A program made the translations under genes and the position numbers. DNA of 64,000 nt from Asterias rubens. Lineage: Eukaryota. Location of the stretch: positions 10,565,160 through 10,629,159 of the forward strand of contig NC_047064.1 of assembly GCF_902459465.1 (NCBI RefSeq), read 5' to 3'. The first letter of the stretch is position 1, and each line of letters begins with the position of its first letter. The notes below the pieces were generated by a model. It was not told where the DNA came from. It did no database searches and was given only the letters and a program-made list of their open reading frames with translations. Below are positions 53,866 through 55,512 of this stretch, piece after piece.

Positions 53866-53950
53866 TGAACTGTGGCAATTTGGGTGTACAGAAAAGAAAA
53901 TAGCACAAAAGTCGAGGTTCGTGGGTCGAGGGGGTTTTAGAACAACCCCT
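53866..53950 (+). repeat. Left member of an inverted repeat pair flanking AGPS exons 2-3
   Basis: The sequence gtggcaatttgggtgtacagaaaagaaaatagcacaaaagtcgaggttcgtgggtcgagggggttttagaacaacc is the reverse complement of 55425-55512. A related fragment lies at 53270-53320. Confidence 0.8.
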
Positions 53951-54794
53951 GTCGTCTCCAGGTAACTACCCTAGAACTATGATTATGACGTTCGTTCGCA
54001 AACGGCTCTGTTGCGATAGCGGAACAAGCCTCATAGTTCTAGGGGTAGTCTCCCGGAACCTCGTTGATGTAGATAAGGCGCCTTATAGTTTCTAGTGTAG
54101 GTCACCATGTACAAACTACTGTTGCCAGTCACAATTAAAAGTTCAATTTTTTAAGAAACCGAATCTCACCAATATTATATAGATGGGCTCTACATATGTC
54201 AATCTGTGTTCTTTGTACTTTCATTAAGCTCACGATGGGTCCGGAAAACAATTTGCTAGAAGTGATTAAACATTCAGAATCTTCAACATCCAGCTTAACA
54301 ATATGGCCGTCGCCGAATAATGGTGGGAATTTATCATTTATTGCAACTTTTCTTTTTTTAGTGGATTTTATGGACCAATGCTGAGCTAACTGTGGAGTCG
54401 TGTGTCAGCTGGTTGTAGAGTTTGTTGGCTCTAATCTTGCTTCCTGATCAATTTGTCTTTGTATTCAATTCCAAAAGAAAGGATTCAGAATTATTTTATA
54501 TAAATATTCTTTTAACGCCTCAAAAAAATGGTGAGGTTACTAAACTTGCTGCCGTACCTTGCCAGAATCAATTGGAAGAGCACCTTCTTTTTATACCAAA
54601 CAATCTGGGATCCTTGATGAGGGTTACACAACACCACCTTACAATAGTGCTTTATGTTCGATAACAAGGACAGAGCAGTTATGGTTTTATAATGGTGTTT
54701 CTCAAGGACTCATTCCACCCTTGGTTTTATACCACTAGACAACTCAGCAAGACACCTAATGATGTGATATTTTGTTGAATCTAATTTCTTGTAG

Positions 54795-54877
54795 GTTACA
54801 ACTCAAGGTCCCATACAGCTAAATGAATGCAGTGCCAGCTCGGTACAAGAGAAGAGAGTTCGCATTCCCAAACGAAG
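54795..54877 (+). CDS. AGPS: AGPS exon 2
   Basis: Translation VTTQGPIQLNECSASSVQEKRVRIPKR. The segment IPKRRQEV matches human IPKKRQEV across the exon junction. Acceptor is tcttgtag and donor is GTAACA. Confidence 0.75.
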
Positions 54878-55277
54878 GTAACAATTATGAAGTTTATAAA
54901 TTTGCTAACAAATAACCTATGTCTGGTTCGTCATAGAGGGTTAACACTATCCAGGCAGATTGAGTACAAACCTGTCTTGGTCAAATAAAAAGAGTTGGCA
55001 TTTTAAACTGCTCTGGGTTCGATTTCACAAAGCAATAAAATCCGTCGTAAGACAAATTGTCAGTTTTACCATAGTGATTTGTATTGTGTGACATCACGCC
55101 ATAACCAGAGTTCCAAAGTTTGGGTGTTGAGTTACCAATCAGTGGATTTTGTGAAGAGTGAGGAAGGATCCCAGTAAATAACCCGTGGGGGTAAGGGGTT
55201 AACCATGTCTTTTACTTGGCTACGTGTAATTAACAATAACATGATTTAAGATTTGCTGAAATACTTGTTGTATACAG

Positions 55278-55367
55278 GCAGGAGGTATTAAAGTGGAATG
55301 GATGGGGTTATAGAGATTCAAAGTTTGAGATTGACGACGCCAGTAACTTCTCTTTCACTGGAAGCAG
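55278..55367 (+). CDS. AGPS: AGPS exon 3
   Basis: Translation (R)[29 protein letters not shown] is almost identical to human QEVMKWNGWGYNDSKF. Acceptor is tatacag and donor is GTAAGT. Confidence 0.95.
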
Positions 55368-55424
55368 GTAAGTATTATATTTGTTCATATATGTGTTCAT
55401 GAATTAAAAACCTGGCAAAACAAC

Positions 55425-55512
55425 TGAGACACAGTTGTTCTAAAACCCCCTCGACCCACGAACCTCGACTTTTGTGCAATTTTCTTTTCTGTACACCCAA
55501 ATTGCCACAATT
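55425..55512 (-). repeat. Right member of the inverted repeat pair flanking AGPS exons 2-3
   Basis: The sequence ggttgttctaaaaccccctcgacccacgaacctcgacttttgtgcaattttcttttctgtacacccaaattgccac begins about 58 nt after the AGPS exon 3 donor. Confidence 0.8.

What the first reader, a model, noticed from the sequence alone, without database searches (positions are those of the whole stretch)
53866..55512. Inverted repeat pair in AGPS introns 1 and 3 bracketing exons 2 and 3, a possible back-splicing (circRNA) substrate
About 85 bp at 53866-53950 is the near-perfect reverse complement of 55425-55512. The pair encloses AGPS exons 2 and 3 (54795-54877 and 55278-55367) with only about 58 nt between the exon 3 donor and the right arm. 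Intronic inverted repeats that flank exons are the classic driver of exon circularisation. A third related fragment at 53270-53320 could compete for pairing.
Basis: partly seen in the sequence, partly recalled or inferred. Interest (0 to 1): 0.5.

Follow-up and report, generated by a model that had tools for sequence, protein, structure and literature searches.

The report
Transposon-end inverted repeats bracketing AGPS exons
Two near-identical 79-base copies of a small DNA transposon's end sit in opposite orientation in the introns on either side of AGPS exons 2 and 3; this common layout could promote a circular RNA, but that is untested here.

Summary
Arms 53868-53946 and 55434-55512 are 79 nt and 97% complementary, scoring 134 bits against at most 37 bits in 100 simulations. 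They bracket correctly called AGPS exons 2 and 3.

The arms are transposon ends. The left arm is the right terminal inverted repeat of a complete 650-bp non-coding cut-and-paste element (53299-53948). That element is flanked by a perfect 9-bp target-site duplication, CTGTCGTCT, a 9-mer that occurs nowhere else in the window. The right arm is an orphan copy of the same ~80-bp terminal module.

The outer tips of both arms face the exons, so the exons are not inside a transposon.

In a fold of the pre-mRNA the two arms pair (-143.5 kcal/mol). Before the right arm is transcribed, the left arm pairs with its own partner inside intron 1.

This is the standard arrangement for repeat-driven back-splicing and for exon skipping. 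Skipping exons 2-3 would shift the frame and give an early stop. The spliced circle would be only 173 nt, and no RNA data could be consulted.

Verdict: an ordinary, structurally valid, unproven circRNA substrate. Neither genome-wide copy number nor the source organism could be determined.

The parts
53868..53946 (-). Left arm of the inverted repeat. It is the ~80-bp right terminal module (right TIR, 53868-53948) of the 650-bp element in AGPS intron 1.
   Evidence: 79 nt, 97% complementary to 55434-55512; the terminal motif GGGTTGTTCTAAAACCCC is on the minus strand at 53931-53948.
55434..55512 (+). Right arm. It is an orphan copy of the same terminal module in AGPS intron 3, 66 nt downstream of the exon 3 donor. 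It lacks the terminal GG(G) and has no partner end and no target-site duplication.
   Evidence: terminus CAGTTGTTCTAAAACCCC at 55432-55449; flanks on both sides are unrelated to the flanks of the left arm.
53299..53948 (+). Complete 650-bp non-coding cut-and-paste (MITE-like) element in intron 1. Its termini are GGGTTGTTC... and ...GAACAACCC.
   Evidence: I3: 53299-53323 vs 53924-53948, 88%; I4: 53557-53577 vs 53870-53890, 86%; no ORF longer than 94 aa; no Pfam hit.
53290..53298 (+). Left copy of the 9-bp target-site duplication CTGTCGTCT, abutting the left terminus.
   Evidence: the 9-mer occurs exactly twice in 64 kb on both strands combined, and both copies abut the element's termini.
53949..53957 (+). 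Right copy of the 9-bp target-site duplication CTGTCGTCT, abutting the right terminus.
53299..53577 (+). Residues 53299-53333 and 53557-53577 match the module, and about 220 nt of unrelated sequence lies between them. It competes with the right arm for pairing to the left arm within intron 1.
   Evidence: 60 predicted base pairs with the left arm when the right arm is absent or blocked.
52600..52758 (+). AGPS coding exon 1. It starts with ATG and carries a PTS2-like motif, RTNVILGHL.
   Evidence: The PTS2 reading rests on my own knowledge of the motif.
54795..54877 (+). AGPS exon 2 (83 nt).
   Evidence: AG/GT borders, frame. (AGPS homologues).
55278..55367 (+). AGPS exon 3 (90 nt), encoding [17 protein letters not shown]...
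   Evidence: the same exon borders occur in Mytilus coruscus AGPS.
56253..56340 (+). AGPS exon 4. It would be the acceptor exon if exons 2-3 were skipped; that junction shifts the frame and gives a stop after 5 codons.

Best explanation
The two arms are copies of the ~80-bp terminal module of a small, non-autonomous cut-and-paste DNA transposon family.

Shown:
- The left arm is the right terminal inverted repeat of an intact 650-bp element that inserted into AGPS intron 1 and duplicated 9 bp of target (CTGTCGTCT).
- The right arm is an orphan copy of the same module in intron 3, in the opposite orientation.
- The exons lie outside both elements, because the outer termini of both arms point at the exons.

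Inferred:
- The bracketing of exons 2-3 is a by-product of independent insertions into introns, not a designed feature.
- In the pre-mRNA the arms can form a 79-bp duplex that loops out exon 2, intron 2 and exon 3. This brings the exon 3 donor close to the exon 2 acceptor.
- By the established reverse-complementary-match mechanism, that loop can promote back-splicing. The circle would be 173 nt, or 573 nt if intron 2 is retained.
- The same loop can promote skipping of exons 2-3, which shifts the frame and gives a stop after 5 codons.
- Pairing of the left arm with the element's own left end inside intron 1 forms first during transcription and competes.

I put about 0.35 on a detectable exon3-to-exon2 back-splice junction, and about 0.05 on any selected function.
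For: Repeat: 79 nt, 97% complementary, 134 bits against at most 37.4 bits in 100 simulations.

Transposon anatomy:
- Terminal inverted repeats 53299-53323 and 53924-53948.
- The terminal motif occurs only 3 times in the window, against 0.21 expected.
- The 9-mer CTGTCGTCT occurs only twice in 64 kb, each copy directly abutting a terminus.
- No ORF longer than 94 aa and no Pfam hit within the element.
- Homology between the arms ends exactly at the module borders, and the flanks are unrelated. This argues against a segmental duplication.

Gene model: AG/GT at every border and a continuous AGPS reading frame over exons 1-6. AGPS identity is supported.

RNA folding:
- The duplex of the two arms is -143.5 kcal/mol.
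- In the MFE fold of 52759-56250 the left arm pairs with the right arm over 76 bp.
- Forcing the right arm unpaired costs 82 kcal/mol, and the left arm then pairs with the element's left end over 60 bp.
- The same intra-intron pairing is predicted for the transcript before the right arm exists.

Mechanism from the literature:
- Inverted repeats of 30-40 nt suffice for circularisation (PMC4201285).
- Inverted DNAREP1_DM transposon copies drive the Drosophila laccase2 circle (PMC4617980).
- Pairing across introns competes with pairing within introns (PMC4344496).
Against: No RNA evidence of any kind was available.

Only one complete element and one orphan module are present in 64 kb. No further copies could be found, because no searchable collection appears to hold this organism. 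Family status therefore rests on the TIR and target-site-duplication anatomy alone.

The two arms are much more alike (97%) than the two ends of the complete element (about 83-86%, and interrupted). The orphan arm also lacks the terminal GG(G), a partner end and a target-site duplication. A local copying or conversion event is therefore not excluded.

Against efficient circularisation:
- The exonic circle would be only 173 nt. ZKSCAN1 exons of 400 nt or less circularised poorly (PMC4201285).
- The left arm is 846 nt from the exon 2 acceptor.
- A competitor within the same intron forms first.
- Strengthening the hairpin can inhibit circularisation (PMC4201285).
Confidence: 0.8

Rival explanations
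1. The pair is a selected, functional driver of an AGPS exon 2-3 circular RNA. The circle would either act as an RNA or throttle linear AGPS mRNA output.
For: The strong duplex forms in the global fold. The right arm is only 66 nt from the donor. The two arms are unusually similar (97%) compared with the element's own two ends. The mechanism has been shown experimentally elsewhere (PMC4201285, PMC4617980, PMC8330042).
Against: The arms are ordinary transposon ends. High identity is expected from recent insertion and needs no selection. The Mytilus coruscus AGPS locus shares the exon 3 borders but has no such module and no inverted pair. The circle is short, at 173 nt. Another repeat pair brackets exons 5-6, so such layouts arise readily. 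No expression data were available.
Confidence: 0.05
2. The right arm did not arrive by transposition. It is a local inverted copy (a patch of duplication or gene conversion) of the left arm.
For: The arms are 97% identical, whereas the complete element's own ends match only about 83-86% over short pieces. The right arm has no partner end, no target-site duplication and a truncated terminus. All three copies in the window lie within 2.2 kb.
Against: Homology begins and ends exactly at the module borders on both sides. Neither the target-site duplication nor any flank is carried along: the outer-flank alignment was reached by 498 of 500 shuffles. That is what a discrete mobile module would give, not a random patch.
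Confidence: 0.12
3. The two arms are the terminal inverted repeats of a single large transposon that carries exons 2-3, or the region is an assembly artefact.
For: Only the bare fact that the arms are inverted and enclose the exons.
Against: The outer termini (...GAACAACCC at 53948 and GTTGTTC... at 55434) both face inward toward the exons. This is the reverse of what a transposon carrying the exons requires. The left arm already has its own partner end and a perfect 9-bp target-site duplication. The enclosed exons continue the AGPS reading frame from exon 1 into exon 4. The repeat is only 79 nt with unrelated flanks, so nothing suggests a collapsed or flipped assembly.
Confidence: 0.01
4. The main consequence of the duplex is not back-splicing. 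A 79-bp, nearly perfect intramolecular dsRNA in the pre-mRNA would be an ADAR editing or unwinding substrate, or a source of small RNAs. Alternatively it mainly causes exon 2-3 skipping and nonsense-mediated decay.
For: Duplex of -143.5 kcal/mol. Skipping gives a stop after 5 codons. Complementary matches promote skipping independently of back-splicing (PMC8330042). ADARs act on such intronic matches (abstract of PMC8938519, listed).
Against: Nothing in the sequence discriminates among these outcomes, and they are not mutually exclusive with back-splicing.
Confidence: 0.25

Closest known systems
Drosophila laccase2 exon 2 circle, driven by inverted DNAREP1_DM transposon copies (Kramer et al. 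2015, PMC4617980)
   Same: Transposon-derived inverted copies lie in the two introns close to the circularising exon(s). Base-pairing between them is the proposed or proven driver. The repeats are lineage-specific.
   Different: There, circularisation and its dependence on pairing were shown by mutagenesis; here nothing is shown at the RNA level. The laccase2 repeats are longer and far less similar (69-75%). The introns there exceed 9 kb, against 2.0 and 0.9 kb here. Here two short exons would give a 173-nt circle.
Human ZKSCAN1 exons 2-3 circle, flanked by inverted Alu elements (Liang and Wilusz 2014, PMC4201285)
   Same: Two exons (2 and 3) are bracketed by inverted interspersed repeats. A short complementary stretch of about 40 nt next to the splice sites is sufficient. 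The present arms (79 nt) exceed that minimum.
   Different: Alu is a 7SL-derived SINE. The present module has no Rfam or tRNA-like match and has the anatomy of a DNA-transposon end. ZKSCAN1 exonic inserts of 400 nt or less circularised poorly, and the present circle would be 173 nt.
C. elegans zip-2 reverse complementary match (Cao 2021, PMC8330042)
   Same: Complementary intronic sequences flank the exon(s), and they promote both back-splicing and skipping of the same exon(s).
   Different: The zip-2 match is 13 nt and conserved across nematodes. The present match is 79 nt, transposon-derived, and absent from the one orthologous locus that could be examined.
MITE-like non-autonomous DNA transposons with 8-10-bp target-site duplications (Mutator-like or Merlin-like; from my own knowledge)
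   Same: Small (650 bp), non-coding, with terminal inverted repeats and a perfect 9-bp target-site duplication.
   Different: No transposase-bearing relative was available, so the superfamily cannot be assigned. The left terminal module is interrupted and degenerate. Copy number in the genome is unknown.

Membership tests
Repeat-flanked (reverse-complementary-match) circRNA-producing locus | Complementary sequences in the intron upstream and the intron downstream of the circularised exon(s) | tested here: met
   79 nt, 97% complementary, in intron 1 (53868-53946) and intron 3 (55434-55512).
Repeat-flanked (reverse-complementary-match) circRNA-producing locus | Canonical acceptor on the first enclosed exon and canonical donor on the last | tested here: met
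   AG at 54793-54794 before exon 2; GT at 55368-55369 after exon 3.
Repeat-flanked (reverse-complementary-match) circRNA-producing locus | The cross-intron pairing outcompetes pairing within each intron | tested here: inconclusive
   It wins thermodynamically: present in the MFE fold, and blocking it costs 82 kcal/mol. However, the competitor within intron 1 (60 bp) is predicted to form before the right arm is transcribed.
Repeat-flanked (reverse-complementary-match) circRNA-producing locus | A back-splice junction (exon 3 donor joined to exon 2 acceptor), RNase R resistant, observed in RNA | not testable with these tools
   No RNA-seq data were accessible and the source organism was not identified.
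Non-autonomous cut-and-paste DNA transposon (MITE-like) | Terminal inverted repeats at the exact ends of the element | tested here: met
   GGGTTGTTCTAAAA... at 53299 and ...TTTTAGAACAACCC at 53948; 25 nt at 88%, plus a second subterminal block of 21 nt at 86%.
Non-autonomous cut-and-paste DNA transposon (MITE-like) | Target-site duplication directly flanking both termini | tested here: met
   CTGTCGTCT at 53290-53298 and 53949-53957. These are the only two occurrences in 64 kb on both strands.
Non-autonomous cut-and-paste DNA transposon (MITE-like) | Small size and no transposase coding capacity | tested here: met
   650 bp; longest ORF 94 aa; no Pfam hit.
Non-autonomous cut-and-paste DNA transposon (MITE-like) | Multiple dispersed copies in the genome | tested here: inconclusive
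   One complete element plus one orphan module in the window. No matches in the metagenome, prokaryotic-genome or viral contig collections, or among 5.8 billion proteins. None of these collections appears to hold this organism.
Non-autonomous cut-and-paste DNA transposon (MITE-like) | Superfamily assignment through a related autonomous element or transposase | not testable with these tools
   No eukaryotic repeat library or genome is available. The 9-bp duplication only hints at Mutator-like or Merlin-like elements (my own knowledge).
SINE-type repeat (Alu-like or tRNA-derived), the usual mammalian driver | Derivation from 7SL, tRNA or 5S RNA | tested here: not met
   No Rfam match on the arms at gathering threshold or at E <= 1, and no tRNA prediction there.

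The most novel reading that the evidence does not exclude
The near-identity of the two arms is maintained because the pair drives an abundant exon 2-3 AGPS circle, or an exon-skipping and nonsense-mediated-decay switch, that tunes output of this peroxisomal ether-lipid enzyme. That would be a recently domesticated transposon-end pair acting as a splicing regulator in a non-model invertebrate.
Probability: 0.05. Interest if true: 0.4.

Novelty: new member of a known kind. Interest (0 to 1): 0.2.

Why it matters
If RNA data confirmed it, this would be one more clean example of transposon ends creating a back-splicing or exon-skipping substrate, outside mammals and flies. Its anatomy is unusually well resolved: an intact element with a target-site duplication, an orphan end, and a built-in competitor within the same intron. 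That makes it a convenient natural test of cross-intron versus within-intron pairing. The principle is already established, so it would not change understanding. As it stands it is a correct structural observation of an ordinary kind.

Tried and rejected
- **Chance repeat:** rejected. The repeat scores 134 bits against at most 37 bits in simulations.
- **Single transposon carrying the exons, or misassembly:** rejected on terminus orientation, the target-site duplication and the intact reading frame.
- **Segmental inverted duplication:** the flanks show no homology. A module-sized conversion patch remains a minor rival.
- **Known RNA family or SINE origin:** no Rfam or tRNA match on the arms.
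- **Further copies of the module:** exact-word scans of metagenome, prokaryotic-genome and viral contigs with two different 21-23-mers found nothing. A protein search with the four open reading frames of the module, meant to catch spurious ORFs called across copies, also found nothing.
- **Identifying the organism:** AGPS homologues reach only 54% identity. Cluster members carry no organism names. Exact look-ups of two window ORFs are not on record.
- **An empty-site paralogue of the insertion site in the window:** none found.
- **Conservation of the layout in an orthologue:** the Mytilus coruscus AGPS locus has the same exon 3 borders but no module and no inverted pair.
- **Literature on AGPS-derived circRNAs:** the search found only papers on the effect of AGPS on circRNA profiles in thyroid cancer cells, which are not relevant.

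Full report
**Observation**

The stated region contains a genuine inverted repeat. Arms 53868-53946 and 55434-55512 are 79 nt long, 77/79 complementary, and separated by 1487 nt. In 100 first-order Markov simulations of the same 4 kb, the best inverted match reached 37.4 bits (mean 27), against 134 bits for the real pair.

Homology ends at 55434, not 55425, so the distance from the last base of exon 3 to the right arm is 66 nt rather than 58.

**Gene context**

A tblastn probe and a database search identify the gene as alkylglycerone-phosphate synthase (AGPS) on the + strand. The best hits are named alkyldihydroxyacetonephosphate synthase at 54% identity, and Mytilus coruscus AGPS at 47%.

I rebuilt the 5' part of the gene with AG/GT at every border and one continuous frame:

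| Exon | Coordinates | Note |
|---|---|---|
| 1 | 52600-52758 | ATG start; PTS2-like motif RTNVILGHL (my own reading of the motif) |
| 2 | 54795-54877 | 83 nt |
| 3 | 55278-55367 | 90 nt |
| 4 | 56253-56340 | |
| 5 | 61143-61263 | |
| 6 | 62219-62293 | |

The introns are 2036, 400, 885, 4802 and 955 nt.

**What the arms are**

The left arm is not a free-standing repeat. It is the right end of a 650-bp element at 53299-53948.
- The element's termini are inverted copies of each other: GGGTTGTTCTAAAA... at 53299 and ...TTTTAGAACAACCC at 53948 (25 nt, 88%).
- A second subterminal block matches as well: 53557-53577 against 53870-53890 (86%).
- Directly outside both termini lies the same 9-mer, CTGTCGTCT (53290-53298 and 53949-53957). 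It occurs nowhere else in the 64-kb window on either strand.
- The terminal motif itself occurs only three times in the window, against 0.21 expected.
- The element has no ORF above 94 aa and no Pfam match.

Terminal inverted repeats, a perfect target-site duplication, small size and no coding capacity together are the anatomy of a non-autonomous cut-and-paste DNA transposon. It is degenerate and interrupted by about 220 nt of unrelated sequence.

The right arm (55434-55512) is an orphan copy of the same ~80-bp terminal module.
- Homology to the left arm starts and stops at the module borders, and the flanks on both sides are unrelated.
- It lacks the terminal GG(G), has no partner end anywhere in the window, and has no flanking direct repeat.

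**Orientation excludes the misassembly scenario**

The outer terminus of the left arm (53948) and the outer terminus of the right arm (55434) both point toward the exons. Two ends of one transposon carrying the exons would point away from them.

In addition, the left arm already has its own partner end and target-site duplication. The enclosed exons also continue the AGPS frame from exon 1 into exon 4. The exons are host sequence lying between two separate transposon-derived pieces.

**RNA-level consequences (inferred)**

- The two arms form a duplex of -143.5 kcal/mol.
- In the minimum-free-energy fold of the pre-mRNA from the start of intron 1 to the end of intron 3, the left arm pairs with the right arm over 76 bp.
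- Forbidding this pairing costs 82 kcal/mol. The left arm then pairs with the element's own left end over 60 bp.
- The same intra-intron pairing is predicted for the nascent transcript before the right arm has been made.

So the cross-intron helix is strongly favoured at equilibrium, but it has a competitor that forms first.

The literature establishes the mechanism:
- Inverted repeats of 30-40 nt next to the splice sites suffice for exon circularisation. Not all repeats work, stronger hairpins can inhibit, and ZKSCAN1 exons of 400 nt or less circularised poorly (PMC4201285).
- Inverted DNAREP1_DM transposon copies drive the Drosophila laccase2 circle (PMC4617980).
- Pairing across introns competes with pairing within introns (PMC4344496).

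Here the spliced circle would be 173 nt, or 573 nt with intron 2 retained. All three reading frames round the 173-nt circle contain stop codons. Skipping exons 2-3 joins exon 1 to exon 4 out of frame, with a stop after five codons.

**How special is it?**

Not very. The window is full of interspersed repeats in both orientations, with 193 inverted pairs of 35 nt or more. Within AGPS itself, a second pair of an abundant SINE-like family (58432-58568 against 62343-62477, 141 nt, 79%) brackets exons 5 and 6.

The 79-nt pair stands out only for its high identity and its closeness to the exon 3 donor. In the one orthologous locus I could retrieve, Mytilus coruscus, the exon corresponding to exon 3 has the same borders. 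That locus has neither the module nor any significant inverted pair in the 5' part of the gene. This fits a lineage-specific, incidental insertion.

**What could not be settled**

- Whether the module belongs to a genome-wide family. Exact-word scans of the metagenome, prokaryotic-genome and viral contig collections with two different words found nothing. A protein search with the module's four open frames also found nothing.
- The source organism. It does not seem to be represented in any searchable collection.
- Why the arms are 97% identical while the complete element's own ends are only about 83-86% alike. This leaves a minor alternative that the right arm is a local module-sized copy or conversion patch rather than an independent insertion.
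- No RNA data were available, so back-splicing, skipping and editing all remain predictions.

**Verdict**

The feature is best described as a transposon-end pair that happens to bracket AGPS exons 2-3, forming a textbook but unproven reverse-complementary-match substrate. It is a new instance of a well-known kind and of low to moderate interest.

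Noticed in passing
window 52850-52981: A second small hairpin element lies in AGPS intron 1, 92 nt downstream of the exon 1 donor. Its arms are 37 nt and 92% complementary. It is flanked by CATCATCT (52842-52849) and CATTATCT (52982-52989), a possible 8-bp target-site duplication matching at 7 of 8 positions. It has only sub-threshold Rfam hits to plant miRNA precursor families MIR7723 and MIR1435.
   Followed up: partly
window 53957-53982 and 54031-54057: Another short inverted repeat (27 nt, 85%) lies immediately to the right of the 650-bp element. 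Intron 1 looks like a patchwork of small hairpin-forming elements.
   Followed up: no
window, e.g. 15943-16300, 34085-34453, 58390-58578, 62341-62728: An abundant SINE-like interspersed repeat family (core ...GGCAGTGGACACTATTGGTAATTACTCAAAA...) is present in at least 11 copies in both orientations. One inverted pair (58432-58568 against 62343-62477, 141 nt, 79%) brackets AGPS exons 5 and 6.
   Followed up: partly
window 58866-58939 and 19581-19653: A tRNA-Ser(AGA) gene or tRNA-derived repeat head lies inside AGPS intron 4 (Rfam 48 bits, also found by ARAGORN). A second tRNA-like match (41 bits) lies at 19581-19653.
   Followed up: no
window 50463-51269: About ten irregularly spaced copies (34-158 nt apart) of a ~41-nt motif, TAGACAAGTTGCCCAAGTTCGGCATATG..., lie about 1.3-2.1 kb upstream of the AGPS start codon (family D18). 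Their nature is unknown.
   Followed up: no
window 32418-33300, 36406-36796, 44604-45040: Three tandem arrays with periods of 12 nt, 23 nt and 9/12 nt. They create long spurious low-complexity ORFs.
   Followed up: no
window 28363-28770 (+): An exon encoding a VIT (vault protein inter-alpha-trypsin) domain (Pfam PF08487, E = 4e-23). It belongs to an upstream neighbouring gene.
   Followed up: no
window 53588-53599 and 53710-53720: Inside the 650-bp element there are inverted CCAAT-box-like motifs (CAGCCAATCACG and GTGATTGGCTG), with CACGTG and GTCGACGTCGAC palindromes between them. This resembles a promoter-like or protein-binding core, judged by eye only.
   Followed up: no
L001 10001-25958 (Mytilus coruscus CACVKT020001364.1): The mussel AGPS orthologue has the same borders for the exon encoding [12 protein letters not shown]...TGER. 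The regions corresponding to exons 1 and 2 here are one exon there. The transposon module and any inverted pair are absent.
   Followed up: yes
window 52600-52758: The N-terminal peroxisomal targeting motif of this AGPS reads RTNVILGHL. Position 2 is Thr, where the usual PTS2 consensus has L/V/I/Q. The comparison with the consensus rests on my own knowledge.
   Followed up: no
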